A stretch of 32,000 nucleotides of DNA from Candidatus Saccharimonadota bacterium (lineage in GTDB: Bacteria > Patescibacteriota > Gracilibacteria > UBA4473), in the NCBI GenBank assembly GCA_965228485.1, contig OZ245819.1, positions 330,001 through 362,000 of the forward strand, read 5' to 3'. A program made the translations under genes and the position numbers. Below the pieces are notes generated by a model. That model was not told the origin of the DNA. It worked only from the letters and a program-made list of their open reading frames with translations, and searched no databases. Below are positions 6,122 through 31,293 of this stretch, piece after piece (positions within the stretch are counted from its first letter, which is position 1; each line of letters starts with the position of its first letter).

Positions 6122-6124
6122 GTT

Positions 6125-6554: not shown

Positions 6555-6590
6555 TAACCCCTTTCAAAACTGTTTCAGGTCAAAAGCTGA

Positions 6591-14569: not shown

Positions 14570-14603
14570 ATAATTCCACAAAATTTCCTAACCTAACCCA
14601 GAA

Positions 14604-15758
14604 ATGAAAGATTTATTACAATCTGCAATGACAAAAACAGAAAGCGATAAAAAAGCTACTCAAGATACTCAACCTGCTAGCAATCCTATTCCCGACATTG
14701 CGCCAGTGGCTAACATTAAAGTTATTGGAGTTGGTGGAGGAGGATCTAATGCCGTGAATCGAATGGCAAGTTCAGACTTTGCTAATGTTGAATTCTTGGC
14801 TATTAACACTGATGCTCAAGCTCTATATCACTCTAAAGCAGAGCACAAAATCCACATTGGACGAGAAGCTACTCGAGGCCTGGGAGCTGGAGCCAATCCA
14901 GAAGTTGGAAAAGTTGCTGCAGAAGAATCTATCGAAGAAATCAAATCTGCTCTAAAAGGAGCTGATATGGTTTTTGTAACCTGTGGTCTTGGTGGAGGAA
15001 CTGGAACTGGAGCGGCTCCAGTTGTAGCGAGTATTGCTAAAGAACTTGGAGCTTTAACGGTCGGGGTTGTGACACGGCCTTTCTCTTTCGAAGGACAAAA
15101 TCGAGGGAAAAAAGCAGATGCTGGATACGAAGAACTAAAAAGTAATGTTGATACTCTTATCACTATACCAAATGATCGAATTCTCTCTATTATCGATCGA
15201 AAAACGCCTCTTACAGATGCTTTCTCTGTGGTAGATGAAGTATTACGACAAGGGGTTCAAGGAATTGCTGATCTTATCACCCTACATGGGCTTATCAATG
15301 TGGATTTCGCAGATGTAAAATCTGTAATGAAGGAAGCTGGAACCGCTCTTATGGGAATTGGTTATGGTGCAGGTGAAGATCGCTCTACGGCCGCTGCAAA
15401 AGCCGCTATCGAATCTCCGTTACTAGAACAATCAATTCGAGGGGCGAAAGGAATTCTCTTCAATGTAACTGGAGGAACGGATCTTTCAATGTACGAAATT
15501 GATGAAGCGGCAAAAGTTATCACCGAAGCGGCTGATCCAGAAGCCAATATTATCTTCGGGGCGGTTATCAATGAAAACTACACTGGAGAAATTAAAATTA
15601 CCGTAATCGCTACAGGGTTCTCAGCAGAAGACAAGAAAAAACCTGGACATTCTCAACTTATGAGAAAAGCCTTCAGCTTTGATGGACAACCAGCGCCTGA
15701 AGCTGACCCAGAAAACGATCTAGAAACACCAGCGTTCCTCCGAAATAAACTTCGGTAA
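14604..15758 (+). CDS. ftsZ: Cell division GTPase FtsZ
   Basis: [17 protein letters not shown] and the tubulin signature [13 protein letters not shown] are present, with the C-terminal FtsA-binding peptide [13 protein letters not shown]. Confidence 0.97.
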
Positions 15759-15783: not shown

Positions 15784-15812
15784 AAAAAATCCCGCAGTGC
15801 GGGATTTTTTTA
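15784..15812 (+). terminator. Rho-independent terminator after ftsZ
   Basis: aaaaaatcccg-cagtg-cgggattttttt, 26 nt after the ftsZ stop. Confidence 0.8.
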
Positions 15813-15844
15813 TTTTTCCCAAAACTTCACTATACTGCCCTTCG

Positions 15845-16927
15845 ATGATCGATAAGTCTCAAGCTTTAGAAATTTTGAATCAAATCACCACCCAACTAAA
15901 AGCCGTAGGTGAAAAGCTTGATATTGAAAATAAACAAAAAGAAGTTAATTCTTTGAATGAAGAGATGGAATCCCCTACTTTCTGGGACAATCCAGAAAAG
16001 GCTCAAAAAGTGAGCCAATCAGCTTCCGAACTTCAAAAGTTTATTGAGACTTGGAAGTTCATCATATCTCAATCTCAGAACCTAAGAGAGCTCTTAGATA
16101 TGGTTGATGGAAAAGATTTAGAGGAAGTACTGACCGAAGTGCAACAACTTCAAAAACAGTTTTCACAAGCAGAAAATGAACTTCTTCTCTCAGACGATCA
16201 TGACCACAACAATGCTATTTTAACGCTCAATGTTGGAACGGGGGGGCAAGATGCAGAAGACTTTTGCCAGATGCTACTGAGAATGTATCTTCGATTTGCC
16301 GAATCAAAAGACTGGAAACCTCAAATTATTGAGGAATCAACCTCCGATGCAGGAATCAAATCTGCCACTATAGAGATCAAAGGAAAATTTGCTTACGGTT
16401 TTCTCAAAGGAGAACATGGAGTTCATCGCTTAATCAGACTCTCCCCTTTCAATGCAAAAAGCCTGAGGCAAACTTCCTTTGCTCGAGTTGAAGTCCTGCC
16501 AGAGATTGAAAATGAATCCGAACTTATTATTGAAGAAAAAGATTTGAGGATCGATGTCTTTCGTTCTAGTGGCGCGGGAGGACAGTCAGTAAATACCACC
16601 GATAGTGCCGTTAGAATTACCTATCTTCCGCTCAACCTTGTGGTTACTTGTCAGAATGAAAAATCACAACATCAAAATAAAGATGCCGCCATGAAAGTTT
16701 TACGTTCGAGACTAGCACAACTAAAACTTGAACAACAAGCCGCAGAACTCCAAGAACTTCGAGGTGACTTAATGGAAAATTCTTTCGGTTCTCAAATCAG
16801 AACCTATACTCTACAGCCCTACAAATTAGTAAAAGACCACCGAACGGACTTTGAACACAACAACCCAGAAAAAGTCTTTGATGGAGAAATCCAAGATTTC
16901 ATAGACCAAATGCTCCGATCTAAATAA
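15845..16927 (+). CDS. prfB: Peptide chain release factor 2, one uninterrupted frame
   Basis: SPF tripeptide (RLSPFNAK) and GGQ (SSGAGGQSVN) are present, with collinear similarity to RF2. The start is moved from the track's GTG at 15797, which lies inside the ftsZ terminator, to the ATG at 15845 (MIDKSQALEIL). Confidence 0.9.
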   Translation: MIDKSQALEILNQITTQLKAVGEKLDIENKQKEVNSLNEEMESPTFWDNPEKAQKVSQSASELQKFIETWKFIISQSQNLRELLDMVDGKDLEEVLTEVQQLQKQFSQAENELLLSDDHDHNNAILTLNVGTGGQDAEDFCQMLLRMYLRFAESKDWKPQIIEESTSDAGIKSATIEIKGKFAYGFLKGEHGVHRLIRLSPFNAKSLRQTSFARVEVLPEIENESELIIEEKDLRIDVFRSSGAGGQSVNTTDSAVRITYLPLNLVVTCQNEKSQHQNKDAAMKVLRSRLAQLKLEQQAAELQELRGDLMENSFGSQIRTYTLQPYKLVKDHRTDFEHNNPEKVFDGEIQDFIDQMLRSK

Positions 16928-19633: not shown

Positions 19634-20635
19634 ATGAACACACGATATTTGTTGAGTTTCGGACTTCTGTCTTTCATTATTTTTCCGTTAAAAAGCCTGG
19701 CTTTTACGGATATAACCATCGCAGATCATCTTTATCCTGATACTACCTACCTTGAACAGCACGAGGTTTTTAAAGGTTATGATGATGGAAGCTTTGGTCG
19801 AAATAGGCTTATTAATCGTGTAGAGGCCTTAAAGACCATCCTTACGGCAGCAGAAGCAGAGATTGCTGAACAGTATGATGGCGTTAAAGATTTTTCTGAT
19901 GTTCCAGCTGGTATCTGGTTTGAAAAATACGTCAAACATTCGGCCGCAAATGGAATTGTTTCGGGAGATGCTGATGGAGATACTTTTTCTCCAAACAGAA
20001 ACGTAAATAAAGCAGAGTTCTTAAAAATGCTCATGTTAGCTTTTGAGATCGATCCTACTCAATACGATCTTTCTGATATAACAATAAAAGACACTCCTGA
20101 TGAGATTTGGTTTGCGCCTTATATGAAATTCGGAGTTAAATTTCACATCTTTAGCCTAGATTCAAATGGAAATGGAAATCCTGGAAAAGAACTTACCCGT
20201 GGAGAAGTCGCTCAACTTATCTTCTCAATGCTTAGGCAGGGGCGAGGTCTAGAACCACAAACTCTTCTAAATCTTGCAGAAATACATCTAATCAAAGCTC
20301 TTGAGTTTATTGATAAGGAAGACATTCCAACCGCTTCACTTCTGGTTTCTATTTCTGAAAAATACGCTACTTACTCATTAGAGATTTTACCAGAGAACGC
20401 GATCGTTCAATCCGCTGATAAGATTGTTTCTTCATTAAAAAGTCTTGTTGGAGCTTATGCTTCAATGAATAGTAAACAATATGATGATGCCGTTACTAAC
20501 GCTAAACAATCTTGGCAAAGCGCTGATGAAAGCTTCGTATTGAATGCTGCCAATAAAAATCTGTCTGATAAAATTAAATCTATTGCCGCGAGTATGGCCG
20601 ATAAAGCCAGAAACCAAAAAGCTTCATCAGAATAA
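19634..20635 (+). CDS. Secreted protein with three S-layer-homology (SLH) domains and an alpha-helical C-terminal region
   Basis: Signal peptide MNTRYLLSFGLLSFIIFPLKSLA. Three SLH-like units follow: FTDI...FKGYDDGSFG...RVEALKTIL, FSDVPAGIWFEKYV...GIVSGDADGDTFSPNRNVNKAEFLKML and IKDTPDEIWFAPYM...LTRGEVAQLIF. Confidence 0.8.
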   Translation: MNTRYLLSFGLLSFIIFPLKSLAFTDITIADHLYPDTTYLEQHEVFKGYDDGSFGRNRLINRVEALKTILTAAEAEIAEQYDGVKDFSDVPAGIWFEKYVKHSAANGIVSGDADGDTFSPNRNVNKAEFLKMLMLAFEIDPTQYDLSDITIKDTPDEIWFAPYMKFGVKFHIFSLDSNGNGNPGKELTRGEVAQLIFSMLRQGRGLEPQTLLNLAEIHLIKALEFIDKEDIPTASLLVSISEKYATYSLEILPENAIVQSADKIVSSLKSLVGAYASMNSKQYDDAVTNAKQSWQSADESFVLNAANKNLSDKIKSIAASMADKARNQKASSE

Positions 20636-20694: not shown

Positions 20695-20730
20695 GAAAAA
20701 CCCCGGCATCTTGGTTGCTCGGGGTTTTTC
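20695..20730. terminator. Bidirectional terminator between convergent genes
   Basis: aaaaaaccccgg...ctcggggttttt: a GC stem flanked by an A-run and a T-run. Confidence 0.6.
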
Positions 20731-20776: not shown

Positions 20777-22363
20777 TTATTTAACGTTTAGGTTAAATTT
20801 AATTGGTCCTAGGTAAGCTGGATTACGATCATTTTTTGTTGTTGCTTCAGAGCTAAATCTGAATCTAATCGTAATGTATTCTCCAGCAGTAAAGGTTCCA
20901 GCCGTCGAGAAAGTCACATCTGCATCCTCTACCCAAGTATCAGCGGTACTACTTACTAGATCAGCTCCTCCAGTAATCGCTCCTACAGAAGTCCCCGCAG
21001 TATCTAGAATTTCTACAATATCAATTTTATTGTCTGTAGAGGCTGTCGTGTCTGTTTTGTAATCAATTTCAATTGGTGTAGCTTGGAATGATACAAAATT
21101 TTCAGGTACTTGCCATTGGTATACAAGATCATAATCGTGTAGAGCGGCTGTTTTTCGAGTTGACCAAGCGTAGTAATTTTTATTAGCGGTACTATCGTGA
21201 TCTGCTTCGAATGTTCCTTTATTGTTTGTTCCATCAGCTTCAATTGTAAAGCTTGCGAACTCAGGCGCTTCGATAAGACTTACGGCTACTTCGGCCAGGT
21301 CTGTTCGAGAAACTGTACCATCTAGAATTTCATCTGTTGTTACCGCTCCTGTTGCGATCTCTGAAGCTGTTACTGCATCTGCTGCAATTTCATCTGAGTT
21401 TACTGAGTCAGTCCCTAGATCGTCAGCGGTAATACTTCCGTCTTGGATTACTCCTCCAACTCCCCCTTGAATCGCGTCATTAGCAATGTCTCCATTAAGA
21501 ATTGTTCCGTCCAAAATCTCATCTGTTGTTACCGCTCCTGTTGCGATCTCTGAAGCTGTTACTGCATCTGCTGCAATCTCATCTGAATCTACTGAGTCAG
21601 TTCCTAGATCGTCAGCGGTAATACTTCCGTCTTGGATTACTCCTCCAACTCCCCCTTGAATCGCGTCATTAGCAATGTCTCCATTAAGAATTGTTCCGTC
21701 CAAAATCTCATCTGTTGTTACCGCTCCTGTTGCGATCTCTGAAGCTGTTACTGCATCTGCTGCAATCTCATCTGAATCTACTGAGTCAGTTCCTAGATCG
21801 TCAGCGGTAATACTTCCGTCTTGGATTACTCCTCCAACTCCCCCTTGAATCGCGTCATTAGCAATGTCTCCATTAAGAATTGTTCCGTCCAAAATCTCAT
21901 CTGTTGTTACCGCTCCTGTTGCGATCTCTGAAGCTGTTACTGCATCTGCTGCAATCTCATCTGAATCTACTGAGTCAGTTCCTAGATCGTCAGCGGTAAT
22001 ACTTCCATCGGTAATCACACCTCCAAGTCCCCCACTTACTGAACCATCAGCTAGGGTAAAGACTCCTGTATTAGAGATCGTAGCGTCTCCTGACATCGTA
22101 ACTCCTGTAGCAATACCAGAAGCATTACCTACAAAGATTTGTGCTGAAGTAAGCGCTAGATCATTCGCAAAGTCTGCTAATGTTACCTCAGAGTAATCAA
22201 TTTCTGAATCTCCTACAGCATTGGCAGCAATTTCATCTGAGTCTACTGAGTCAGTCCCTAGGTCGTCAGCGGTAATACTTCCGTCTTGGATTACTCCTCC
22301 AACTCCCCCTTGAATCGCGTCAAGCAATGTCTCCATTAAGAATTGTTCCGTCCAAAATCTCAT
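20777..22363 (-). CDS. Repeat adhesin, downstream (C-terminal) fragment of a gene split by a frameshift
   Basis: Five copies of the 63-aa repeat (DGSITADDLGTDSVDSDEIAADAVTASEIATGAVTTDEILDGTILNGDIANDAIQGGVGGVIQ) plus a C-terminal ~170-aa module homologous to the C-terminus of the 27753..29921 product. The annotated ATG at 22363 is fortuitous and lies inside a repeat. Confidence 0.7.
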   Translation of the reverse strand: MRFWTEQFLMETLLDAIQGGVGGVIQDGSITADDLGTDSVDSDEIAANAVGDSEIDYSEVTLADFANDLALTSAQIFVGNASGIATGVTMSGDATISNTGVFTLADGSVSGGLGGVITDGSITADDLGTDSVDSDEIAADAVTASEIATGAVTTDEILDGTILNGDIANDAIQGGVGGVIQDGSITADDLGTDSVDSDEIAADAVTASEIATGAVTTDEILDGTILNGDIANDAIQGGVGGVIQDGSITADDLGTDSVDSDEIAADAVTASEIATGAVTTDEILDGTILNGDIANDAIQGGVGGVIQDGSITADDLGTDSVNSDEIAADAVTASEIATGAVTTDEILDGTVSRTDLAEVAVSLIEAPEFASFTIEADGTNNKGTFEADHDSTANKNYYAWSTRKTAALHDYDLVYQWQVPENFVSFQATPIEIDYKTDTTASTDNKIDIVEILDTAGTSVGAITGGADLVSSTADTWVEDADVTFSTAGTFTAGEYITIRFRFSSEATTKNDRNPAYLGPIKFNLNVK

Positions 22364-22745
22364 CTGTTGTTACCGCTCCTGTTGCGATCTCTGAAGCTGT
22401 TACTGCATCTGCTGCAATTTCATCTGAGTTTACTGAGTCAGTCCCTAGATCGTCAGCGGTAATACTTCCGTCTTGGATTACTCCTCCAACTCCCCCTTGA
22501 ATCGCGTCATTAGCAATGTCTCCATTAAGAATTGTTCCGTCCAAAATCTCATCTGTTGTTACCGCTCCTGTTGCGATCTCTGAAGCTGTTACTGCATCTG
22601 CTGCAATCTCATCTGAATCTACTGAGTCAGTTCCTAGATCGTCAGCGGTAATACTTCCGTCTTGAATTACTCCTCCAACTCCCCCTTGAATTGCGTCATT
22701 AGCAATGTCTTCATTAAGAATTGTTCCATCTAGAATTTCAGTTGT
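21315..22745. repeat. Near-identical 189-bp (63-aa) tandem coding repeats, about 7 copies in two blocks separated by unique sequence at ~22030-22200
   Basis: The marker cccccttgaa recurs at 21462, 21651, 21840, 22305, 22492 and 22681. Spacing is exactly 189 within each block, except 187 between 22305 and 22492. Confidence 0.9.
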
Positions 22746-23216
22746 AGTGATACTTCCTGTTCCAGCTGTATCTTCTACAGAATCCCATCCTCCGACACCC
22801 GTACAAACCATCATTTCGTTTGCTGTTGTGTCATAGTACATTCGACCAGCTTCACCAGCCAGAGTACAAGTAGGCGCTCCTGCTGTTGTGAAGCTTTCAA
22901 TTTTGAAATCTTCTAAAACGTTACCCCCAAGGTTTACATCCTTATTAAATGTAAATTGTCCCGTAGAATCATTATACGAGATAGAGGCTCCAAGATTTGC
23001 CCCGAAATTTAAGTCTAGGTCAGTATTTTCACTAACCGCCACTGTCCCATCCTGGTCCAATGTGTACGCATCCGCATCTACACCGTCTTCTTCAGTTGTA
23101 AAGATCAAACGGGCTTCTGCCGATGGTGAAAGCACAGAAAGTCCTAGTCCGCATAGTATCGCGAGACTAAGTAGCTTCTTGGCTTTTGCCGTCTGCCGAT
23201 TGTTTAAGTTGTACAT
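22320..23216 (-). CDS. Repeat adhesin, upstream (N-terminal) fragment: signal peptide, shared N-terminal module and 2.9 repeats
   Basis: Signal peptide MYNLNNRQTAKAKKLLSLAILCGLGLSVLSPSAEA, the shared module YTLDQDG...LNFGANLG...FTFNKD, and the Cys motif APTCTLAGEAGRMYYDTTANEMMVCTGVGGW. The ORF ends at a TGA created by the 2-bp deletion at 22322/22323. Confidence 0.7.
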   Translation of the reverse strand: MYNLNNRQTAKAKKLLSLAILCGLGLSVLSPSAEARLIFTTEEDGVDADAYTLDQDGTVAVSENTDLDLNFGANLGASISYNDSTGQFTFNKDVNLGGNVLEDFKIESFTTAGAPTCTLAGEAGRMYYDTTANEMMVCTGVGGWDSVEDTAGTGSITTTEILDGTILNEDIANDAIQGGVGGVIQDGSITADDLGTDSVDSDEIAADAVTASEIATGAVTTDEILDGTILNGDIANDAIQGGVGGVIQDGSITADDLGTDSVNSDEIAADAVTASEIATGAVTTDEILDGTILNGDIA

Positions 23217-23270
23217 GATTTCCTAAAAATTAATGCTATAAGAGTGATTTATACTTAAGAAAATCTGACC

Positions 23271-23299
23271 ATTGTATCAAACATTTATTCATGCGTCAA
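23271..23299 (-). promoter_or_regulatory. Sigma70-type promoter for the repeat adhesin
   Basis: The minus strand reads TTGACG (23299-23294), 17-nt spacer, TACAAT (23276-23271), about 55 nt upstream of the ATG at 23216. Confidence 0.6.
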
Positions 23300-23430
23300 A
23301 CTAAAATTAAGAAAAAACTAATAAACACTCTTAAAATCTTTATAAGTAAAGGAACAAAAGTATTAATATTTAAAGATTGAACTAATAAAATGTTCAGTAT
23401 AAATAAGTATACATTTTATACTCAGCTGAG

Positions 23431-24987
23431 TTATGGCTGCATAATATTCACCTTAAAGGTTTTTGTTCCTCCTGTGAGATTTTGTACTCCGATGGTGGTA
23501 TCTGAATGTAATCGTACTCGAGCTGTAGATTGATTCGTTTTTTGCCAATAGGTCTGAGTACTATAATTAAAGCTTATTCCAGAATGAACTGGAGTATTAT
23601 TTGTATCAGAAGTTCCAATTGAGACCGCATAATCCAAATTCCCAGTACCAGAATTTAAACCTCCTGATACGTTCCAATTCGCCGCAGAAAGAGATTCCAC
23701 CTGTGCCGAAGTCATTCCCACCGTTTCTATATCAGAAAGCGTTTGAGTCCCCCAAGCACTTCCATTAAAACTTTTCCAGGTCACCCCATCGTCAAAAGAG
23801 AAAAGGTACCTCAGTTCTGTACTGGCTGGTTGATTCTCAACGACATCTACAGAATTGATTTGAGACCAAGGAGAAGTAACGAGTGATTTTCCTGGTCGAG
23901 TCGTTACATAAGCAGGAGTGGCTGAATATCCTCCCCCAAGAGCTTCAAAGAAACGTCCTTCTCTAATTACAAAATACGTAGCATTTTGTCCTGTTACGCA
24001 GAAAAAACGCCAATATCTAAACGTTGCGGGTGTAAAATCCCAAGTCTCATCAGTCGTATCGCCCCCTACTGGATTTACCGTTGAAACCGTTGTCCAATTA
24101 CTTCCATCATTAGATCCTTCAATCCTCATAGTCGTAGCATGATAACTCGTGCTATACCAATTAATCTGAGCGCGCATAACCGTTGTTGGAGAACCTAAGT
24201 CGACCGCCCACCATTGATTCGCCGAAGAACTTTCTCCCTGATTATACCAAAAAGTAGAGGTACTATTGTCATTTCCTTCTGAAGGCGCTCTTGTCGTATC
24301 TGAAGCCAGAGCTGTAGCTCCAATTGATAAATTTGTACTTCCTGGAGTATAAGATCCTGCTGGCTGTAATTTTATGGTATCTCCCGAAAAATCTGTAATA
24401 TTGTTATCTTCCTGAGTATAAAGTCCTTCCTCTGAAGTCAAAACATCCCAAGAATTCCTATCATCTATGGTTTCAGCATCTTGATAATAAACATCAACGA
24501 CTCTTTCATAGTTTGGATCAGTATTATGAGTAAATATTTCCTCCGCACCATTATTTATTGAAGCCGTTAGCTGGGTGATATTCGTTCCACCTCCAGTGGA
24601 TATTGGCTCAAAACTCGCTCCATCATTACTCAATTCCCACTGATTATCTGTAGCGTTATAACGTATTCTTCCTGCATTATCACTTCCTTGATTGGCTACA
24701 ATATCAACATCAGCTCCCTCACCACCATTATCGGCATCTAGCGTCAAAACATTTCCATCCTGTTCCACATTTCCAAAGACTCTTAGGGTATCGTTGAGAT
24801 TAAATCTATTATTGGTTACATCCCACTCTAAGAACTTATTAAGAGTCGATCCAAACTGAAGGGTAATATTCCGAGAAGAATCGTCGTCTTCATCTAGTAC
24901 AAAAACCTCAAAACTTCCACCTCCATATTCTTGAGCCTGAATAGGGGTTATCCACAGTAAAACCAATATATATAATAAATTTTTCAT
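23431..24987 (-). CDS. Secreted protein with the shared N-terminal module and a discoidin (F5/8 type C)-like domain
   Basis: Signal peptide MKNLLYILVLLWITPIQA and the module FVLDEDDDSSRNITLQFGSTLNKFLEWDVTNNRFNLND. The segment ALASDTTRAPSEGNDNSTSTFWYNQGESSSANQWWAVDLGSPTTVMRAQINWYS...MRIEGSNDGSNWTTV fits the F5/8-C pattern. The start lies 4 nt after the upstream gene. Confidence 0.7.
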   Translation of the reverse strand: MKNLLYILVLLWITPIQAQEYGGGSFEVFVLDEDDDSSRNITLQFGSTLNKFLEWDVTNNRFNLNDTLRVFGNVEQDGNVLTLDADNGGEGADVDIVANQGSDNAGRIRYNATDNQWELSNDGASFEPISTGGGTNITQLTASINNGAEEIFTHNTDPNYERVVDVYYQDAETIDDRNSWDVLTSEEGLYTQEDNNITDFSGDTIKLQPAGSYTPGSTNLSIGATALASDTTRAPSEGNDNSTSTFWYNQGESSSANQWWAVDLGSPTTVMRAQINWYSTSYHATTMRIEGSNDGSNWTTVSTVNPVGGDTTDETWDFTPATFRYWRFFCVTGQNATYFVIREGRFFEALGGGYSATPAYVTTRPGKSLVTSPWSQINSVDVVENQPASTELRYLFSFDDGVTWKSFNGSAWGTQTLSDIETVGMTSAQVESLSAANWNVSGGLNSGTGNLDYAVSIGTSDTNNTPVHSGISFNYSTQTYWQKTNQSTARVRLHSDTTIGVQNLTGGTKTFKVNIMQP

Positions 24988-24991
24988 GAAT

Positions 24992-27610
24992 TTATGAACT
25001 TATAATCTGAACATTATCAATAGAACAGTCCCCCGTATAATCTGAACCAGAAGTATAAAGGAGGCGTATTGCTTCAACTTCAAAAGAAGACAAATCAACA
25101 AATTGATTCAAGTAAGCATCCCCCTGCCCTGTTTGTTGTTGTCCGCTAAGAGTAAATCTAGTCGTCCAAACTCCAGAACGTAGTGTTTGAACTTCTAAGT
25201 CTCCCATGGCCGCCCCATACATGTGATAATCAAAACTAACAGACTGAGCGACATTAAAATGAGTCGTTTCAAGCCCAAATGTAAAATCGGGAAAATTTGG
25301 ACTACTCGCCTCTGCAAACATATAGAATGTTCCATCAGAAGCGACTGTTGGTCCTGTACCGCCAGAAGGAGTTCCCCCGGAATTATTTGTCCAAGCAACA
25401 TCGAGTCCACTATCAGTCCAATTACCAAGCCCCGCTTCAAAACTCTCTGTATAGGTTCCAGCCGGTCCTGTTCCGGTTATTAGGGTGATATCAAAAATTC
25501 CTACTCCATTTCCAGACCAGGTCGTATTATCAATACCTCCATTATCAACAATGACATCATAAGTCCCCGTTGTGGCGGTTGTCGTCACATCAACATCTAT
25601 TTGAGTTGGAGAGACAACCGTTGTAGAGTTAATCGTCCCTGTAAATCCTGGAATAGAAACCGTACTAGTCGGTAAAAACCCTTCCCCATTAATGCTAAAA
25701 GTTTGAGTTGTACTCGGAGGGATTTCAATAGAAGCGGTATTAATAAAAGGTGCACCACTACTTCCTGCGGCTCTTAACTGAACAATTGAAAGAGTAGACT
25801 CGTTGGCATTCATATACACAGGCTGTGTTCCTCCCCCTTCTCGATCTACTAATATTTCAAAATATTCATTAGCAGCCAAATCCAGAATAATAGAGAAATT
25901 TAGAGAGGTTTCATCTTGACTTGAACTGTTACGAATATATCCAGGCTGAAATCGTGGACCCAAGACCGTTGATCCGTTTAAACGAAATTTTAGTTTCCCA
26001 TTATAACGAGTGTTAGCCCCACTAATTGAGACCGTTCCACTGACTAAATATTTTCCATCTTGAGCCACTTGAATTCGACTATTATTCGTTACGGTGTCAT
26101 GTACAAAAACATCAACGTCTTCAAAAGCTTCTATATTCCAAGGAACAAGATTGTCTGTGGTCGCCGCATTTATATTAGCAATTGAATTATCACTATAACG
26201 CGCCGCCGCCATATCATTCATAGCTTGAGCCGAAACATCCAATTGCTCCCAGGCCGTCCCATTACACACATAGGTATTCGCATTCGTGGTATTATAATAA
26301 ATTTTCCCTATCGCTGTTCCATCACAAGTAGGAGCTGAAGCTAAGTTTTCCAGGCGAACATCCTGAATTTCAGAATTACTCAACCCAAGATCATCACTTA
26401 ATTCAAATCGACTAAGCGTTCCATTCCAGGTAAGCGTCTCATTTAGTACCGTTCCAAAGACTAGTGAAATATCGGTAGCGGTATCATCATCATCGAGTGT
26501 AAAAGTATCGGAAGAGGTCCCCGCTCCTACAGAACCCGGATCCCCTTTCGAAACCATTAATTCCCAGTAAGTTGGATTAGAGGGCGGTTCATTAGAAACC
26601 GTATTCAAAATACAAACGTAACTCGATCCCTGATAACTTACTACTTGGTTTTGCAAATAGTTTTGAGAAACCCAAGCTCCTGCCCAAGTCATATCCCCAT
26701 CCGCTCCTGGAGAACCCGTCGCCCCTGTTGGCCCAGCTGGTCCCTGAGGAGCTCTTAGTTGTACGACCGAAAGTGATGACTGACCACTAATCATATTAGC
26801 AGGTCCAGCATTAGTATTTTCTCGGTCAACTAATATTTCAAAATAATCATTCGCATTTAAATCTAAAACGGTAGTAAAGACTAAAGAAGTTTCTGTTTGT
26901 CCTGTATCCTGACGAATATAACCTGGCTGAAATCTCATAGGGAGAACCGTTACCCCGTTAACTCTAAACTTTACCCGTCCGTTATAACGAAAAACTGAAG
27001 TTGTAGAATTTTGTACATTGATAGTTCCACTCACAAAATATTTACCGTCAGCCAAAACCTCAACTCGACTGTTATTAGTAACCGTATCATGAGCAAAGGT
27101 CGTTGCATCTTCTAAATCTTCGGTATCCCAGGGCACTAAATTATCAGTCGTACTGGCATTTAGGTCTGTAGTTGAAGTGTCTCGATAACGGGCAGTTGCT
27201 AACTCTCCCAAACCTCCAAGCATATCAAGCTGCTCCCAGACACTTCCATTACACACGTATGTATTTGAGTCAGCGGTATTATGATAGATCTTCCCAATAA
27301 CGGTATTGTCACAATTTGGAGCGGTTGCAGAGTTTTGAAGACGAGCGTTAACAATCTCGTTATCGGATAGATCAATATCTCGATTAACCACAAACTTATC
27401 AAGGATTACATCGTACCTTAGCTTGGCATCCAATGTCGCTCCAAACTCAAGATCAATATAGTCATCTGAAGTGTCTCCTGAATCCAGTATAAAGACTGGA
27501 CTGTGAACTCCATCGTTTTCAGTAGAAAACAACAATGCTGCCAACCCCTCTCCCGACAAAAGGGAGAAGATAAAACAAAAGACAAAAAATTTCTTTAAAA
27601 AGTTATGCAT
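24992..27610 (-). CDS. Secreted multidomain protein: 2x (shared module + Cys motif + C1q/TNF-like jelly roll), a collagen-like G-X-Y run, a CBM5/12-like segment, an IPT/TIG-like domain and a C-terminal MAM-like domain
   Basis: The start is set at the ATG at 27610 (MHNFLKKFFVFCFIFSLLSGEGLA), not the track's TTG at 27634. GPAGPTGATGSPGADGD lies at ~26690-26750. ADGKYFVSGT...LNANDYFEILVD and QDGKYLVSGT...LAANEYFEILVD resemble C1q. FESFEAGLGNWTDSG...TFYMFAEASS...VSFDYHMYGAAMGDLEV...GDCSIDNVQI resembles MAM. Confidence 0.75.
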   Translation of the reverse strand: MHNFLKKFFVFCFIFSLLSGEGLAALLFSTENDGVHSPVFILDSGDTSDDYIDLEFGATLDAKLRYDVILDKFVVNRDIDLSDNEIVNARLQNSATAPNCDNTVIGKIYHNTADSNTYVCNGSVWEQLDMLGGLGELATARYRDTSTTDLNASTTDNLVPWDTEDLEDATTFAHDTVTNNSRVEVLADGKYFVSGTINVQNSTTSVFRYNGRVKFRVNGVTVLPMRFQPGYIRQDTGQTETSLVFTTVLDLNANDYFEILVDRENTNAGPANMISGQSSLSVVQLRAPQGPAGPTGATGSPGADGDMTWAGAWVSQNYLQNQVVSYQGSSYVCILNTVSNEPPSNPTYWELMVSKGDPGSVGAGTSSDTFTLDDDDTATDISLVFGTVLNETLTWNGTLSRFELSDDLGLSNSEIQDVRLENLASAPTCDGTAIGKIYYNTTNANTYVCNGTAWEQLDVSAQAMNDMAAARYSDNSIANINAATTDNLVPWNIEAFEDVDVFVHDTVTNNSRIQVAQDGKYLVSGTVSISGANTRYNGKLKFRLNGSTVLGPRFQPGYIRNSSSQDETSLNFSIILDLAANEYFEILVDREGGGTQPVYMNANESTLSIVQLRAAGSSGAPFINTASIEIPPSTTQTFSINGEGFLPTSTVSIPGFTGTINSTTVVSPTQIDVDVTTTATTGTYDVIVDNGGIDNTTWSGNGVGIFDITLITGTGPAGTYTESFEAGLGNWTDSGLDVAWTNNSGGTPSGGTGPTVASDGTFYMFAEASSPNFPDFTFGLETTHFNVAQSVSFDYHMYGAAMGDLEVQTLRSGVWTTRFTLSGQQQTGQGDAYLNQFVDLSSFEVEAIRLLYTSGSDYTGDCSIDNVQIISS

Positions 27611-27752
27611 TGTATCAGGATTTAATTTTGTCAAAAAACGTAAAAAAATCCAATTTTATGCACCTTAAACCATGAAATTTAATTTACATTAAGTAAAAAT
27701 ATTTTCTGTTTACATAAATTGTTCAAGAACAATTTATTTGAAAACCAAAGAA

Positions 27753-29921
27753 TTAGTTCAGAACCATATTGAATTTAATATCCGCTACAGCGGTTTCAAA
27801 TCCTGTTTTCGCCTGCATTTTAATCTTAATCCAAATGATGTCTCCAGCAACCCAAGAAGCACCAGAAGCAATGGTGAAGTCTCTGCTATTCCAGGTATTA
27901 CTCGTCAATCCAATACCACTACTAGATAAGAAATCTCCTGCTAAACCTTCTTTTTCAAGAGTCACATCAATTTTTGCATCAGAAGATGTTCCTGAGGTTC
28001 TATATTCCAAAACCATATTATTGCTGGGTTTAAATTCTTTGAAATTTTCTGGAAGTTGATAACGAACCAAAATATCGTAATCTTGCATGTCAGACTGCTT
28101 AGTGTCCCACCTTAGGATCTGTTTATTCAGTCCTAAAACCGTTTCAACCTCCTCATACATAGAACCATGATTATCAGTCCCATCCCCCTCTAAAGCCGAC
28201 TTAGGATAACGAGGACTCAATATAAGTTCATAATCTCCTGAAGCGATATTTGCAGCAACAATATCCCCTGTTACCACTAAATTCCCAGAAACAAACAAAT
28301 CATCATTAAATTCAAATCTATCTAAGATATTGTTCCAGAGAAGCGATTTCCCAAGAGATGAACCAAACTCTAAAATCAAGTTATCAGACGGCGCTGCATC
28401 ACCGTCTTGATCTAACGTAAAGGTGTTATTATCGGTCCCTAATGTGCTCACTCCAGGTATAATCGAAGCATCTAACTTCCCTGAAGTATCGTCAATGTAC
28501 GGAATATCGCCTGGGTTTAGCCCTACATCTCGGTAATCCAATTTATTCGCATTAAAAGCATAAGGTACCGAAGAGATAACTTTACGATCTTCTGCTGGAT
28601 CAGAAGTATCGATATCAATCATCTCATAAAAAGAATCAGCATGAGTTGCCAACTTTACATCAACCTGCAAAAACATTGTGTCATCGTCAAACAATCCATC
28701 TGGAAAAGGATTTACTTTTCCAAGTCTAAAACTAAAACTTCCTCCACCACCAAGGTTCTGTGTTTGAACTTCTGTCCATCCTTTGTAGTTAGGTGCAGCT
28801 CCATTAATAGCTCCCAAAATTTCATCTGAATCTTCATGATCCACACTATCCCAAAAACTAAAGCGAAAGGTATAATCTCCCGCTAATGGCTGCCCCAGAT
28901 CATTTAATAATTCTCCTTCGTAAATCAGCATCTGAGGCGAGGTCGTTACGGCTTCCGCTGGCAAGATATTACCTGAGAAAACTATCCCCAGAACGGTAAA
29001 TACACTCAATAGTCTCTTCCAAAAACTCGTTTTTTGCTTTTTCCGTTTTCGATCATTGATGATCATTAAAACGATCAACACTACGAGTAGATAGAAGATA
29101 ATTAACAGCCCACAAACAAAGAACATGAGCTTATGAGCCAATACTTTCCAGAATTCATCATATTGGAACTGAGACCGAACATAAGTCGCACAATAAGTCT
29201 CTAGATCTGGTTCAGACTCATCAAGTAATGCTTCAGTCTCTCTCATTGGCGCTGACATTTTGAAATATCCTTCACTTTCATAATTTAAAAAATCATCCTT
29301 TGTAATTACCAACGCTGGAGACTCGGGTGATGGCGTTGAGCCTCCAGTCATTAGTTGAGGAGTTCTAATAGTAGCTTGGTTTTTAGGTTCTAAGGTTACT
29401 TGATTCACTTGCTCTGGTTTCGGGAAAGAAACGAGCAGGCTTTCATCAATAACCTCTGTATCAATTACACTTGTTTGCAAATTACTCGCTGGAATATCAC
29501 TTTCGTCTTCCAACGTCTCTGGATCTTCAAACTCCAGATTTTTCTTTGGTGCTTCTGGCGCAGAAGTTAGAAACTTCTCTTCTGCCTCGGAAAGTTTTAC
29601 CAATTCATCATACTTTCGCGTCAGTAACCAATCAGAAGCATCATACTTCTCACTGTTGTCTGACACAGAGGTTTGCGTTCCCCCTCCTGAACCTGGTATG
29701 GTAATGGTTTGAGAGACCACAACCTTGCTTGGTTCAATCCTTACTTTATCGTTTACTTTAAAACTCGCTGAAGAAGAGTCTGGCTTCGTAGCCATAACTC
29801 GAAACGAAGAACCATCTCTAATCTGATAAGCACCAGCAATTGAAGGCGTCAGAATGCACAAAGCCAAGAGGTACACCGTACCCCTTTTTAATGCTTTAGT
29901 ATTAAATTTTGAAAACGCCAT
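27753..29921 (-). CDS. Surface protein with an N-terminal signal/anchor, a central TM hairpin, a tail-fibre-like segment, the shared module and the shared C-terminal module
   Basis: The N-terminus is TVYLLALCILTPSIAGA. The central part is LMFFVCGLLIIFYLLVVLIVLMII-NDRKRKKQKTSFWKR-LLSVFTVLGIVFSGNIL. Further along come LIYEGELLNDLGQPLAGDYTFRFSFWD...VPYAFNA and FTLDQDGDAAPSDNLILEFGSSLGKSLLWNNILDRFEFNDD. The C-terminus aligns with that of the 20777..22363 product. Confidence 0.75.
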   Translation of the reverse strand: MAFSKFNTKALKRGTVYLLALCILTPSIAGAYQIRDGSSFRVMATKPDSSSASFKVNDKVRIEPSKVVVSQTITIPGSGGGTQTSVSDNSEKYDASDWLLTRKYDELVKLSEAEEKFLTSAPEAPKKNLEFEDPETLEDESDIPASNLQTSVIDTEVIDESLLVSFPKPEQVNQVTLEPKNQATIRTPQLMTGGSTPSPESPALVITKDDFLNYESEGYFKMSAPMRETEALLDESEPDLETYCATYVRSQFQYDEFWKVLAHKLMFFVCGLLIIFYLLVVLIVLMIINDRKRKKQKTSFWKRLLSVFTVLGIVFSGNILPAEAVTTSPQMLIYEGELLNDLGQPLAGDYTFRFSFWDSVDHEDSDEILGAINGAAPNYKGWTEVQTQNLGGGGSFSFRLGKVNPFPDGLFDDDTMFLQVDVKLATHADSFYEMIDIDTSDPAEDRKVISSVPYAFNANKLDYRDVGLNPGDIPYIDDTSGKLDASIIPGVSTLGTDNNTFTLDQDGDAAPSDNLILEFGSSLGKSLLWNNILDRFEFNDDLFVSGNLVVTGDIVAANIASGDYELILSPRYPKSALEGDGTDNHGSMYEEVETVLGLNKQILRWDTKQSDMQDYDILVRYQLPENFKEFKPSNNMVLEYRTSGTSSDAKIDVTLEKEGLAGDFLSSSGIGLTSNTWNSRDFTIASGASWVAGDIIWIKIKMQAKTGFETAVADIKFNMVLN

Positions 29922-29927: not shown

Positions 29928-29956
29928 ATTGTACCAAAAAATGACGTTTTTTTCAA
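29928..29956 (-). promoter_or_regulatory. Sigma70-type promoter placed for a leaderless transcript of the 27753..29921 gene
   Basis: The minus strand reads TTGAAA (29956-29951), 17-nt spacer, TACAAT (29933-29928), then only 6 nt (ATCTGG) before the ATG at 29921. Confidence 0.55.
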
Positions 29957-30000: not shown

Positions 30001-30351
30001 TTAGAAATTCACAGCGACATTTTCGGCTTCTACAGAAATGAAATTCTTAGTATTGATTGATACCATTTCCTGCACAAATTCATCACTTTCTAACGCGTAA
30101 ATACTCGAAGGAATGGCGAGTAAAATATCCATGTCTTCTACTTCTTTTTGGTAAGACAATTGTTCTGCCTTCAAAGACTCCATATCAAACCCCTGTGTTG
30201 CTAATGCATTTAACATCATCAAATACACCACTCCAAGCACAATATTCAGAATAAATAAACCAATAAAAAAGTGTTTAACATAGGCTTGTAAACCTTTTTC
30301 AATATTAAATATAGGTTGAGCTGACGCAGGATCGAAGTAAGTAATATTCAT
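30001..30351 (-). CDS. ftsL: FtsL-like bitopic cell-division protein
   Basis: 116 aa with a single TM helix (FFIGLFILNIVLGVVYLMMLNAL) followed by a short heptad-like region (ESLKAEQLSYQKEVEDMD). It starts 6 nt after rsmH, the canonical ftsL position in dcw clusters. The assignment rests on position and topology. Confidence 0.5.
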   Translation of the reverse strand: MNITYFDPASAQPIFNIEKGLQAYVKHFFIGLFILNIVLGVVYLMMLNALATQGFDMESLKAEQLSYQKEVEDMDILLAIPSSIYALESDEFVQEMVSINTKNFISVEAENVAVNF

Positions 30352-30357
30352 ATTTTT

Positions 30358-31293
30358 TTAATTTTTTTGAGCCACTCTAAATTTTGCCGATCGGGCACGG
30401 CTATTTTGTTCAATTTCCCCTTCTGAAGGGGCTATTGCTTTTTTCGTTAGTAAGGTCAATTGCGCTGGAGTAACTGGTTCATGAAGTGAGAAATCAGTTT
30501 GAATTGTTTTTGGTTTTGAATGAAGTTTGAAAAACTTTTTTACAATTCGATCTTCTAATGAGTGATAAGAAATCACTCCAATTCGATCTCCCTCATTCAT
30601 CACTTCCAGAGCCGCTGAAAGCGCCTTTTCTAAATGACGAAGCTCATCATTAACCGCAATTCTAAAAGCCTGAAACACTCTCGTCAGAGCTTTTTTTCTA
30701 TCTTTTGGATGCACATTGGATTCAACAATGCCTCTTAACTCAGAAGTCATTTTTATCGGCTGATGCTGTCTATACTCGATCATTTTTCGAGCAATTTTTC
30801 TCGCTTGAGGCTCTTCACCAAAGTCTTTCAAAATGGTAGTCAACTCTTGTTCCGTAGAGTGATTTACCAGGTTATCACATTTTTCAACATCACTAGAAAA
30901 AGACATATTTAGTGGACCATCTCCCACAAAAGAAAAACCTTTTTCTGGATCATCAAAGTGATTCGAACAAACTCCTAAATCCAGTAAAATTGATAGTGTC
31001 CCATCTGAATCAGGAACACGCTCCATCATATCGGCGATATCTGAAAAATTCCCCTGATTGAGATAGAGTTTTTGACTCCAAGTTTTGAGTCGGTCTTTTG
31101 CAAAATCTAAATGCTGTACATCAAGATCTGACGCCACGTAAAAATCTAATTGAGGCACCGAAGAAAGAATAGCTTCTGCATGTCCCCCCAATCCTAAGGT
31201 TCCATCAAAAAACACCTTCGTATCTTCTGTAATCAAGAAATCCATAACTTCTTTTAACAGCACTGGGTGATGAGTTAGCTTTTCAACAGTCAT
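30358..31293 (-). CDS. rsmH: 16S rRNA (cytosine1402-N4)-methyltransferase RsmH (MraW)
   Basis: HHPVLLKEVMDFL, DGTLGLGGHAEAIL, SYHSLEDRIVKKFF and ARSAKFRVAQK are RsmH family signatures. Confidence 0.93.
   Translation of the reverse strand: MTVEKLTHHPVLLKEVMDFLITEDTKVFFDGTLGLGGHAEAILSSVPQLDFYVASDLDVQHLDFAKDRLKTWSQKLYLNQGNFSDIADMMERVPDSDGTLSILLDLGVCSNHFDDPEKGFSFVGDGPLNMSFSSDVEKCDNLVNHSTEQELTTILKDFGEEPQARKIARKMIEYRQHQPIKMTSELRGIVESNVHPKDRKKALTRVFQAFRIAVNDELRHLEKALSAALEVMNEGDRIGVISYHSLEDRIVKKFFKLHSKPKTIQTDFSLHEPVTPAQLTLLTKKAIAPSEGEIEQNSRARSAKFRVAQKN

What the first reader, a model, noticed from the sequence alone, without database searches (positions are those of the whole stretch)
20777..29921. 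9-kb block of four paralogous giant secreted proteins sharing modular N- and C-terminal cassettes and carrying eukaryote- or phage-like adhesion domains
All four genes are on the minus strand directly downstream of rsmH and the ftsL-like gene, and each encodes a signal peptide. All contain a ~45-aa module with the pattern F-[TVI]-LD-x-D...[LI]-x-FG-x-x-L-x(3-4)-L-x-[WY]-x(5-7)-F-x(3)-D. It occurs once in the 722-aa, 518-aa and split 814-aa proteins, and twice in the 872-aa protein. The 722-aa protein and the split adhesin also share a ~150-aa C-terminal module (YD[IL]V..[WY]Q[LV]PENF..F... ending IKFN[ML]). Different inserts sit between these cassettes: C1q/TNF-like jelly rolls, a collagen G-X-Y run, MAM-like, discoidin-like, IPT/TIG-like, a tail-fibre-type segment (LIYEGEL...G.PL.G.Y.F.F...VPYAFNA) and 63-aa acidic repeats. 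This resembles a cassette-shuffled host- or partner-attachment fibre locus, of the kind expected in an episymbiont or surface-attached cell. The combination and the shared module are not something I can assign to a described system.
Basis: partly seen in the sequence, partly recalled or inferred. Interest (0 to 1): 0.72.

Follow-up and report, generated by a model that had tools for sequence, protein, structure and literature searches.

The report
Modular lectin-tipped surface fibre gene array
A small-genome (candidate phyla radiation) bacterium carries four neighbouring genes for secreted, phage-fibre-like surface proteins that share an undescribed ~100-residue stalk module and end in different sugar-binding heads, most likely used to stick to other cells.

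Summary
Four same-strand genes lie at 20777-29921(-) downstream of rsmH/ftsL. One is split by a 2-bp deletion inside 189-bp repeats. All share an N-proximal module, and two share a ~160-aa C-terminal module (pairwise E 1e-5 to 1e-14).

Confirmed inserts:
- MAM (Pfam).
- F5/8-C, CBM32-like (Pfam, PDB).
- Two TNF/C1q-like jelly rolls (AF2 model with Foldseek; homologues carry BclA_C).
- A 5-6 triplet collagen run next to a borderline CBM5/12 match.
- 63-aa acidic repeats matching phage tail-fibre PHROGs.

IPT/TIG was not confirmed. The proteins are 518-880 aa, not giant.

The shared module has two halves. n1 has no Pfam, NCBIfam, PHROG or PDB sequence match. n2 is a Cys-paired neck also found at the N termini of phage virion proteins. 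A profile of it finds 1,111 cluster representatives. All named genome loci are Patescibacteria (Gracilibacteria, Peregrinibacteria and others), often in tandem arrays and often multi-copy per protein. A syntenic locus in a distant relative has the same genes with different module counts.

Best reading: Sec-exported, probably trimeric, lectin-tipped surface fibres for host attachment, analogous to Bdellovibrio MAT fibres, BclA and phage receptor-binding proteins. Function is inferred, not shown. I rate it a new variant of a known kind.

The parts
27753..29921 (-). Gene A (722 aa): membrane-anchored fibre protein. Layout: leader, acidic ectodomain, TM hairpin, tf domain, n1, C module.
   Evidence: ORF. 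Hydrophobic segments at residues 16-34, 257-292 and 304-325. Module HMMs. Full-length orthologues in L001 (1333 aa) and L005.
28494..28949 (-). A722 'tf' domain (aa 325-476; LIYEGEL...VPYAFNA), predicted beta-sandwich
   Evidence: Conserved in P0194-P0199. AF2 pLDDT ~80-88. No Pfam hit. One distant homologue, P0200, carries Peptidase_S74.
28281..28439 (-). A722 n1 module (aa 495-547)
   Evidence: HMM 9e-16. BLAST to D298 2e-9.
27759..28235 (-). A722 C module (aa 563-721), CBM-like beta-sandwich head
   Evidence: BLAST to E528 6e-14. AF2 pLDDT ~85-94. Foldseek finds CBM61, CBM86, CBM11, Klebsiella phage K2-2 tailspike, Kp7 gp52 and Bd1399 at E 5e-5 to 1e-3. Phage tail fibre and tip proteins appear in BFVD.
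24992..27634 (-). Gene B (880/872 aa). Layout: leader, n1-n2-jelly roll, collagen run plus CBM5/12-like, second n1-n2-jelly roll, unassigned ~100 aa, MAM.
27212..27511 (-). B880 first n1+n2 module (aa 42-141)
   Evidence: HMM 3e-20 and 1e-26. n2 matches phrog_8309/38707 at 6e-16.
26729..27199 (-). B880 first TNF/C1q-like jelly roll (aa 146-302)
   Evidence: AF2 pLDDT 80-96. Foldseek PDB finds EDA-A1, C1ql3, Caprin-2 C1q, ExsFA and phage 1358 RBP. Homologues carry PF18573 BclA_C.
26522..26743 (-). Collagen-like G-X-Y run (aa 298-313) plus CBM5/12-like segment (aa ~320-360)
   Evidence: Triplets. CBM_5_12 3e-5, 24.4 bits against a 26.2 cut-off. phrog_5073 tail fiber 5e-15. Hits carrying Collagen plus CBM_5_12.
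26225..26521 (-). B880 second n1+n2 module (aa 372-470)
25745..26209 (-). B880 second jelly roll (aa 476-630)
   Evidence: 54% identical to the first unit. HMM result.
25001..25444 (-). MAM domain (aa 731-878)
   Evidence: Pfam PF00629 7e-8, 32.9 bits against a 26.4 cut-off. PDB MDGA1 MAM 3.5e-3. About eleven orthologues carry MAM.
23431..24987 (-). Gene C (518 aa). Layout: leader, n1, n1', F5/8 type C (CBM32-like), unassigned C-terminal domain. Its start lies 4 bp after the stop of gene B.
   Evidence: Intact orthologue in L008, 50% identity.
23977..24288 (-). F5/8 type C / CBM32-like domain (aa 234-337)
   Evidence: Pfam 4.6e-17 and 2.7e-15. PDB chitosanase DD domains 1e-6, AlyQ and YeCBM32.
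20777..23216 (-). Gene D/E (~813 aa if repaired). Layout: leader, n1-n2, ~9 acidic 63-aa repeats, C module. It is split into ORFs of 298 and 528 aa.
   Evidence: Intact 1602-aa orthologue in L001.
22320..22325 (-). Frameshift site: a 2-bp deletion creates an in-frame TGA
   Evidence: Five sister repeats read GCTAATGAC, whereas this copy reads GCTTGAC.
22758..23084 (-). D298 n1+n2 module (aa 45-153)
21281..22763 (-). 189-bp (63-aa) acidic tandem repeats
   Evidence: TRF finds period 189 with 96-98% matches. phrog_892 tail fiber 8e-29.
20783..21283 (-). E528 C module (aa 361-527)
19634..20635 (+). Convergent SLH-domain protein (333 aa), a possible cell-wall anchor or partner
   Evidence: Pfam SLH 3e-17. 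It neighbours family genes in L001/L002, L015 and L016.
30001..31293 (-). Upstream rsmH and ftsL-like genes (context)
   Evidence: The same order is found in L001.
29928..29956 (-). Promoter-like site ahead of gene A. A second lies at 23271-23299 ahead of gene D.
   Evidence: These are the two best minus-strand matches (10 of 12 with a TG extension). The total count is not above the shuffles, so this is weak evidence.

Best explanation
The block encodes a repertoire of Sec-exported, modular surface fibres of a Patescibacteria (CPR) bacterium.

Each protein starts, right after its leader, with a conserved stalk module. Its first half (n1) has the pattern F-x-LD-x-D...FG..L...L-x-W....F. In genes B and D/E it is followed by n2, a disulfide-braced beta-meander 'neck' (AP-x-C....G-x-IYYNT....Y-x-C-x-G..W). 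Gene A has n1 only, placed internally (residues 495-547) after the TM hairpin and tf domain. Gene C has n1 plus a degenerate second n1 copy. The stalk carries one or more distal binding heads: TNF/C1q-like (BclA_C-type) jelly rolls, MAM, CBM32/discoidin, CBM5/12-like, or a CBM-like C-terminal beta-sandwich. Spacers include a short collagen run and 63-aa acidic tail-fibre-type repeats that set fibre length.

By analogy with BclA, TNF/C1q proteins, phage receptor-binding proteins and Bdellovibrio MAT fibres, the proteins are inferred to form homotrimers that project from the cell and bind glycans on a host or partner cell. Having several differently tipped fibres would broaden or tune what the cell can attach to. 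Gene A is the one copy with a transmembrane hairpin. How the others are retained is unknown; candidates are the cell wall, the S-layer, the adjacent SLH protein, or gene A.

Shown: the module architecture, the folds of the heads, secretion leaders, family size and taxonomic range, tandem arrays, and synteny with changed module content.
Inferred: trimerisation, surface display and host adhesion.
For: - Module sharing is statistically solid.
- Leaders: N-terminal hydrophobic stretches are present in all four genes. Across the family the first n1 starts at a median residue of 41, and 125 of 150 members have a hydrophobic N terminus.
- Disulfide: the n2 Cys pair is present or absent together (112 both, 67 neither, 13 mixed), as expected for an extracellular disulfide.
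- Heads: the TNF/C1q jelly roll is modelled at pLDDT 80-96 and matches EDA-A1, C1q-like proteins, ExsFA and phage 1358 RBP. BclA_C is found in 23 of 82 members, C1q in 4 and TNF in 1. MAM and F5/8-C pass Pfam thresholds. The C module matches CBMs and phage tailspike or fibre C-terminal domains.
- Spacers: the 63-aa repeats and the collagen/CBM5_12 segment hit tail-fibre PHROGs. n2 hits the N termini of phage virion protein families.
- Family: 1,111 representatives at E<=1e-3 and 400 at <=1e-10, often multi-copy.
- Taxonomy: the 17 genome loci found are labelled Gracilibacteria, Peregrinibacteria/Peribacteria, Altimarinota, Saccharibacteria or Patescibacteria, or are unclassified MAGs.
- Arrays: tandem arrays with the same module vocabulary occur in L005, L007, L009, L015, L017 and L020.
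- Synteny: rsmH-ftsL-[fibres]-SLH in L001, with different unit numbers and an extra gene.
- Literature: MAT fibres with an invariant N domain and mosaic tips, including GlcNAc-binding TNF-like tips (PMC10769870). Glycan-binding adhesins are essential for epibiotic growth of a Saccharibacterium (PMC10633639). Surface proteins have been proposed as host-recognition factors in Absconditabacteria (PMC8080830, PMC13059738).
Against: - There are no expression, localisation or binding data.
- Trimerisation was not modelled. n1 and n2 have low monomer confidence (pLDDT 30-80), so their fold and role are unknown.
- n1 and n2 recur internally, so they are not simply an N-terminal anchor.
- No sortase, lipobox or other anchoring signal was seen by eye in genes B, C and D/E.
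- One of the four genes is frameshifted, and an orthologue of another is frameshifted in the relatives. Some copies may therefore be decaying.
- The lifestyle of this particular organism is not known.
- The C-module fold matches are weak (TM 0.2-0.5).
Confidence: 0.6

Rival explanations
1. The proteins form a structural surface nap or coat, like the BclA hair layer of the Bacillus exosporium. They would shape surface properties such as hydration, protection or spacing, rather than recognise a host.
For: BclA_C-type jelly rolls and a collagen run. The ExsFA exosporium protein is among the fold matches. An SLH protein is recurrently adjacent. The repeats are very acidic.
Against: The heads are diverse lectin-type domains (MAM, CBM32, CBM5/12-like, CBM-like C module). 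There are several differently tipped paralogues per genome, and module content varies between relatives. These features fit recognition better than a uniform coat.
Confidence: 0.2
2. The proteins are secreted, non-anchored carbohydrate-binding proteins. They would scavenge or tether polysaccharides or cell-wall debris for a nutritionally dependent cell.
For: Several CBM-type domains are present. No retention signal was seen in three of the four proteins.
Against: No catalytic domain was detected in any of them. The fibre-type spacers and trimer-type domains suggest long projecting structures. Gene A has a TM hairpin.
Confidence: 0.12
3. The block is a remnant of a prophage or tailocin, that is, receptor-binding protein genes of viral origin.
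For: PHROG tail-fibre hits. Fold matches to phage RBPs and tailspikes. n2 is present in Gordonia phage GMA6.
Against: No other phage gene lies nearby. The flanks are rsmH/ftsL, an SLH protein, YebC, RF2 and ftsA/ftsZ. The chromosomal position is conserved in a relative whose housekeeping proteins are only 35-60% identical. The proteins carry Sec-type leaders. n1 is absent from phage libraries. Only one viral contig was found in IMG/VR.
Confidence: 0.04
4. The block is a decaying, non-functional gene family in which the frameshifts mark pseudogenes.
For: Gene D/E is split by a 2-bp deletion. The gene C orthologue is split in L001-L004.
Against: Three of the four genes are intact long ORFs. The family has more than 1,000 cluster representatives with conserved motifs and a co-varying Cys pair. 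Intact orthologues exist for each gene. The deletion lies in near-identical repeats, where assembly errors are common.
Confidence: 0.04

Closest known systems
Bdellovibrio bacteriovorus MAT (mosaic adhesive trimer) fibres (PMC10769870)
   Same: Both are a multi-gene repertoire in a bacterium that lives on other bacteria. Both have an invariant N-proximal domain with no PDB homologue, phage-tail-fibre-like shafts, and swapped C-terminal tips that include TNF/C1q-like lectin domains. Bd1399 appears among the fold matches of the C module.
   Different: No sequence similarity to the crystallised MAT fragments was found. No S74 chaperone is present in the window proteins. The conserved module here is repeated internally (up to 14 n1 copies per protein). 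The organisms are monoderm CPR rather than Bdellovibrio. Homology of the N modules was not tested.
BclA / ExsFA exosporium proteins of Bacillus (Pfam BclA_C, PF18573)
   Same: The jelly roll is TNF/C1q-like. Family members hit BclA_C (23 of 82). A collagen-like G-X-Y run is present. ExsFA is among the fold matches.
   Different: The window protein itself does not reach Pfam BclA_C. The jelly roll is internal and duplicated rather than C-terminal. The collagen run has only 5-6 triplets. The N-terminal module is unrelated to the BclA targeting sequence.
Phage receptor-binding proteins, tail fibres and tailspikes (lactococcal phage 1358 RBP, Klebsiella K2-2 TSP, PHROG 892/5073/8309)
   Same: The layout is a neck plus jelly-roll head, with a CBM-like C-terminal domain, acidic beta-helix-type repeats, and a collagen plus CBM5/12 segment.
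   Different: These are chromosomal, Sec-exported cellular proteins in a conserved housekeeping neighbourhood. The n1 half of the module is not found in phage libraries.
Large surface adhesins proposed for CPR epibionts (Vampirococcus, Strigamonas, Southlakia; PMC8080830, PMC13059738, PMC10633639)
   Same: Both are secreted or membrane proteins with lectin or adhesion domains in Patescibacteria, proposed or shown by Tn-seq to be needed for life on a host.
   Different: The domain sets differ: fn3, VCBS, integrin, PKD and dockerin there, against n1/n2, BclA_C, MAM, CBM32 and the C module here. None of the papers I read describes this module or these tandem arrays.

Membership tests
C1q/TNF superfamily (BclA_C type) | Compact ~10-strand jelly-roll beta-sandwich of ~130-160 aa | tested here: met
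   The AF2 model has pLDDT 80-96 over residues 120-270. Foldseek PDB gives prob 1.0, E 2.5e-8 to 3e-6 and TM (target) 0.69-0.79 to EDA-A1, C1ql1/3, Caprin-2 C1q, APRIL, BAFF and ExsFA.
C1q/TNF superfamily (BclA_C type) | Profile match to PF18573, PF00386 or PF00229 | tested here: inconclusive
   The window protein has no hit at E<=0.1. Homologues at 33-38% identity carry PF18573. Of 82 family members, 23 hit BclA_C, 4 hit C1q and 1 hits TNF.
C1q/TNF superfamily (BclA_C type) | Homotrimer around a three-fold axis | not testable with these tools
   Only monomer AF2 was available.
MAM domain (PF00629) | Profile match above the gathering score | tested here: met
   32.9 bits against a 26.4 cut-off, E 7e-8, covering profile positions 2-153 of 158.
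F5/8 type C / CBM32 | Profile match above the gathering score, and similarity to solved CBM32 domains | tested here: met
   PF22633 62.9 bits and PF00754 57.1 bits. PDB 4zy9, 2rv9, AlyQ and YeCBM32.
Collagen triple helix (PF01391) | Extended G-X-Y repeat that passes the profile threshold | tested here: not met
   There are only 5-6 triplets. The score is 15.8 bits against a 27.2 cut-off. Relatives have longer runs that pass.
IPT/TIG | Profile match to an Ig-like TIG domain | tested here: not met
   Pfam gives no hit on B880 620-730 even at E<=10. The only signal is NCBIfam CoaZ_rpt_PGGG at 27.5 bits against a 30 cut-off.
Peptidase S74 tail fibre / endosialidase chaperone | C-terminal S74 intramolecular chaperone domain | tested here: not met
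   It is absent from all four window proteins. It is present only in the distant homologue P0200.
Bdellovibrio MAT superfamily | Sequence or fold homology of the invariant N-terminal domain and the trimeric beta-prism shaft | not tested
   No MAT N-domain sequence or structure was available. The window proteins have no PDB sequence hit to the crystallised MAT fragments. There is only a weak fold hit to Bd1399 (E 1e-3).
Bdellovibrio MAT superfamily | Repertoire of fibres with one conserved N-proximal domain and mosaic adhesive tips | tested here: met
   Module maps. This shows how the system works like MAT, not that it shares ancestry.
Prophage / tailocin locus | Neighbouring phage structural, lysis or integration genes | tested here: not met
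   The flanks are housekeeping genes. The chromosomal synteny is conserved.

The most novel reading that the evidence does not exclude
n1-n2 is a lineage-specific 'fibre chassis' of Gracilibacteria, Peregrinibacteria and related Patescibacteria. On this reading it is a trimerising stalk or docking module onto which interchangeable lectin heads are shuffled, so that the tandem arrays form the host-range determinant of these uncultivated episymbionts. That would make them a cellular counterpart of phage receptor-binding-protein cassettes, evolved independently of the Bdellovibrio MAT system, and sharing its neck (n2) with phage virion proteins.
Probability: 0.3. Interest if true: 0.8.

Novelty: new variant of a known kind. 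Interest (0 to 1): 0.6.

Why it matters
No Gracilibacteria or Peregrinibacteria are in culture, and only a few members of the related Absconditabacteria are. How these bacteria find and hold their hosts is unknown beyond type IV pili and a few generic adhesion domains.

A large protein family of more than 1,100 cluster representatives, without a library model, placed in tandem arrays and tipped with identifiable lectin folds, offers concrete candidates for host-recognition molecules. Recombinant heads could be screened on glycan arrays or used as baits to identify hosts. The n1/n2 profile could be used to annotate these 'hypothetical proteins' across thousands of MAGs.

It would also be a second, independent case after Bdellovibrio MAT fibres of a bacterium-dependent bacterium using phage-like mosaic fibres.

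Tried and rejected
- The profile search of the 5.8-billion-protein index with the five window modules returned only one hit, because of word-index and E-value limits. The exhaustive HMMER search was needed.
- An rsmH-based scan of genome contigs found no close relative, so the organism itself was not identified. The look-up of paralogue P0005 by exact sequence also failed.
A narrower alignment worked, but its search pattern came from n2, so the taxonomic picture is biased towards Cys-type n2 carriers.
- The PDB profile search with the module gave only noise (TMEM106B, E 0.3).
- Pfam and NCBIfam on 35 module copies gave only noise.
- Alternative genetic code (UGA = Gly, as in Gracilibacteria sensu stricto) was rejected. 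Long ORFs are uninterrupted under table 11. An RF2 with the SPF motif is encoded at 15797-16927. Reading TGA as Gly does not restore the repeat frame at the D/E break.
- Phase-variation tract at the frameshift was rejected. There is no simple-sequence repeat there.
- Prophage origin was rejected (see rivals).
- A DGR or reverse transcriptase nearby was not seen in the Pfam scans of the window ORFs.
- Rfam found only tRNA-Leu.
- Literature searches found no description of this module.

Full report
**What is there**

The window comes from a low-GC (~38%) small-genome bacterium. The proteins of the finding sit on a single 1,295,315-bp contig held by NCBI and ENA.

The block 20777-29921 holds four minus-strand genes directly after rsmH (30358-31293) and a 116-aa ftsL-like ORF:
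- A: 722 aa.
- B: 880 aa from TTG, 872 from ATG.
- C: 518 aa, starting 4 bp after the stop of B.
- D/E: two ORFs of 298 and 528 aa.

D/E is one gene. Inside an array of 189-bp repeats (96-98% matches), one copy reads GCTTGAC where five sister copies read GCTAATGAC. This 2-bp deletion creates an in-frame TGA. The repaired product is ~813 aa.

UGA is a genuine stop here. Long ORFs are uninterrupted under table 11, and an RF2 with the SPF motif lies at 15797-16927.

A convergent SLH-domain protein (19634-20635) closes the block. The remaining flanks are housekeeping genes: YebC, a Na/Ca exchanger, RF2, ftsA/ftsZ, signal peptidase and BacA.

**The shared modules are real**

Pairwise BLAST links the N-proximal module of all four genes, with E from 2e-5 to 7e-14. 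It links the C-terminal ~150 aa of A and E at 6e-14 with 30% identity. B contains an internal duplication of ~250 aa at 54% identity.

Custom HMMs resolve the following vocabulary:
- A = leader, acidic ectodomain, TM hairpin (257-325), tf (325-476), n1 (495-547), C module (563-721).
- B = leader, [n1-n2-jelly roll], collagen/CBM5_12-like, [n1-n2-jelly roll], ~100 unassigned aa, MAM.
- C = leader, n1, n1', F5/8-C, unassigned C-terminal domain.
- D/E = leader, n1-n2, about nine 63-aa repeats, C module.

**Domain calls**

- MAM and F5/8 type C pass Pfam gathering scores. The F5/8-C domain resembles solved bacterial CBM32 domains.
- The jelly rolls have no direct Pfam hit. An AF2 model built on 20 homologues has mean pLDDT 76, with the jelly roll at 80-96. 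It matches EDA-A1, C1q-like proteins, Caprin-2 C1q, APRIL, BAFF, the exosporium protein ExsFA and lactococcal phage 1358 RBP, at Foldseek E 2.5e-8 to 3e-6 and TM(target) 0.7-0.8.
- Homologues carry Pfam BclA_C.
- The collagen run has only 5-6 triplets. It abuts a borderline CBM5/12 match. This pairing is common in hits annotated with Collagen plus CBM_5_12, and in tail-fibre phrog_5073.
- The 63-aa repeats have 14 acidic and 0 basic residues. They match tail-fibre PHROGs, for example phrog_892 at 8e-29.
- The C module is modelled at pLDDT ~90. It weakly resembles CBM61, CBM86 and CBM11, the Eph ligand-binding domain, the C-terminal domains of Klebsiella phage tailspikes and fibres, and Bdellovibrio Bd1399. 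It also resembles phage tail-fibre and tip proteins in BFVD.
- IPT/TIG was not found.
- The tf segment is a conserved, confidently modelled beta domain with no library match.

**The shared module is an un-modelled family**

A profile of the five window copies, searched exhaustively against 1.84 billion representatives, finds 1,111 proteins at E<=1e-3 and 400 at <=1e-10. Many have several copies, up to 23 matched stretches.

Among the best 150 hits:
- The first n1 starts at a median residue of 41.
- 125 have a hydrophobic N terminus.
- Most have at least 2 n1 copies.

The module splits into two halves. n1 has no match in Pfam, NCBIfam, PHROGs or PDB sequences. n2 matches the N-terminal ~50 positions of phrog_8309 and phrog_38707 and some 'virion structural' or 'tail fiber' PHROGs. 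n2 also occurs in Gordonia phage GMA6.

The two n2 cysteines are present or absent together: 112 both, 67 neither and 13 mixed among 192 distinct copies. This suggests an extracellular disulfide, although the sequences are related and so not independent observations.

Source databases name these proteins only 'hypothetical'.

**Taxonomy and genomic context**

Genome loci encoding the module are labelled Gracilibacteria, Peregrinibacteria/Peribacteria, Altimarinota, Saccharibacteria or 'Patescibacteria group', or are unclassified MAGs. One cluster is labelled Pacearchaeota. A homologue of gene A is from Peribacteraceae.

Family members commonly lie in same-strand tandem arrays that use the same vocabulary (L005, L007, L009, L015, L017, L020).

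A 203-kb contig (L001) has the same layout: rsmH, ftsL-like, fibres, SLH. Its module content differs:
- The A orthologue is 1333 aa and carries repeats instead of n1.
- An extra 1076-aa gene is present.
- The B orthologue has one n1-n2-jelly unit instead of two.
- The C orthologue is split by a +1 frameshift, identical in four assemblies.
- The D/E orthologue is intact at 1602 aa with many more repeats.

Housekeeping proteins of the two genomes are only 35-60% identical. This shows long-term modular divergence at a conserved site, not recent cassette exchange.

SLH homologues also neighbour family genes in L015 and L016. A further paralogue (P0005, 886 aa, 67% identical to B over 43% of its length) lies elsewhere on the same 1.295-Mb contig.

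**How it most likely works**

Shown:
- Secretion leaders.
- A conserved stalk module, with a probable disulfide in its n2 half where that half is present.
- Lectin-type heads of several folds.
- Fibre-type spacers.
- Multi-gene arrays.

Inferred:
- The proteins trimerise. TNF/C1q and BclA_C domains and collagen are obligate trimers in known cases.
- They project from the cell and bind glycans on another cell.
- Several tips widen or tune the range of targets.
- Gene A is membrane-anchored. Retention of the others is unexplained.

I put this at about 0.6. Rivals are a BclA-like structural nap (0.2), free glycan-binding proteins (0.12), a prophage remnant (0.04) and decaying genes (0.04).

**Comparison with known systems**

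Functionally, the closest system is the Bdellovibrio MAT family. It has an invariant N domain with no PDB homologue, phage-like shafts, and mosaic tips that include GlcNAc-binding TNF-like domains (PMC10769870).

Membership in the MAT family is not established. There is no sequence similarity to the crystallised fragments, and the N domains could not be compared.

BclA and ExsFA share the head fold, and phage RBPs share the overall design.

Work on CPR epibionts proposes or shows that surface adhesins matter, but with other domain sets (PMC8080830, PMC13059738, PMC10633639). None of the papers I could search describes this module.

**Verdict**

I rate it a new variant of a known kind, namely mosaic lectin-tipped fibres, built on an undescribed and widespread CPR module. 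Interest is 0.6.

Noticed in passing
window 1-3549 (-): An ORF of at least 1183 aa runs off the left end of the window. It has a hydrophobic leader and internal repeats of ~230 aa (GNLLNNGTVQDQGAGRLNLTVQGNLQTTGNFDPY...). The only library signal is a weak G8 domain hit (E 9e-4, below the cut-off). It contains none of the n1, n2 or C modules, so it is a second, unrelated large surface protein.
   Followed up: partly
window 19634-20635 (+); L001 16476-17477; L015 ~4380-5285; L016 ~4501-5073: An SLH-domain protein with a helical C-terminal half lies next to module-family genes in this window and in three other CPR loci. It is a candidate cell-wall anchor or partner for the fibres.
   Followed up: partly
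L001 10360-10420 (same sequence in L002, L003, L004): The orthologue of gene C is split into 138-aa and 345-aa ORFs by a +1 frameshift at GGTGGTGGCGGATGAAGGGG. The sequence is identical in four independent assemblies. As with D/E in the window, the break leaves a free-standing 'leader plus N module' product.
   Followed up: partly
window 15797-16927 (+): This release factor carries the SPF motif (RF2), so UGA is read as stop, unlike in code-25 Gracilibacteria. The listed GTG start with an odd N-terminal extension may hide the usual prfB frameshift.
   Followed up: partly
L022 8001-8150 (Gordonia phage GMA6, KR063280 75592-75942): A phage protein, annotated 'head decoration' or hypothetical, shares the n2 neck motif at 31-42% identity. 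n2 also matches the N termini of phrog_8309 and phrog_38707.
   Followed up: partly
n2 copies in family hits (alignment): The two cysteines of n2 co-occur almost perfectly: 112 both, 67 neither, 13 one only. Variants without cysteines have an aromatic residue (Y or W) at the second position.
   Followed up: yes
same genome, outside the window (protein P0005): An 886-aa paralogue on the same 1.295-Mb contig has the layout n1-n2 ... n1-n1-n2-jelly roll ... n1. It is 67% identical to gene B over 43% of its length. Its locus could not be retrieved.
   Followed up: partly
window 13337-15758 (+) vs 30001-31293 (-): The division/cell-wall cluster is broken up. rsmH-ftsL is followed by the fibre genes instead of ftsI and the mur genes. 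ftsA-ftsZ lie ~15 kb away on the other strand.
   Followed up: no
window 20696-20730: A GC-rich hairpin (CCCCGG...CGGGG) flanked by an A-run and a T-run lies between the convergent SLH gene and gene D/E. It looks like a bidirectional terminator, but the scanner did not list it (sequence printed).
   Followed up: no
window 4296-5129, 6591-7226, 7591-8388, 10383-11204, 11460-12005: Five ORFs of 181-277 aa have no Pfam match. Two of them (6591-7226 and 7591-8388) are the only ORFs listed, apart from the broken 298-aa ORF of gene D/E, that end in TGA. Region 6001-7000 has raised GC (0.49).
   Followed up: no
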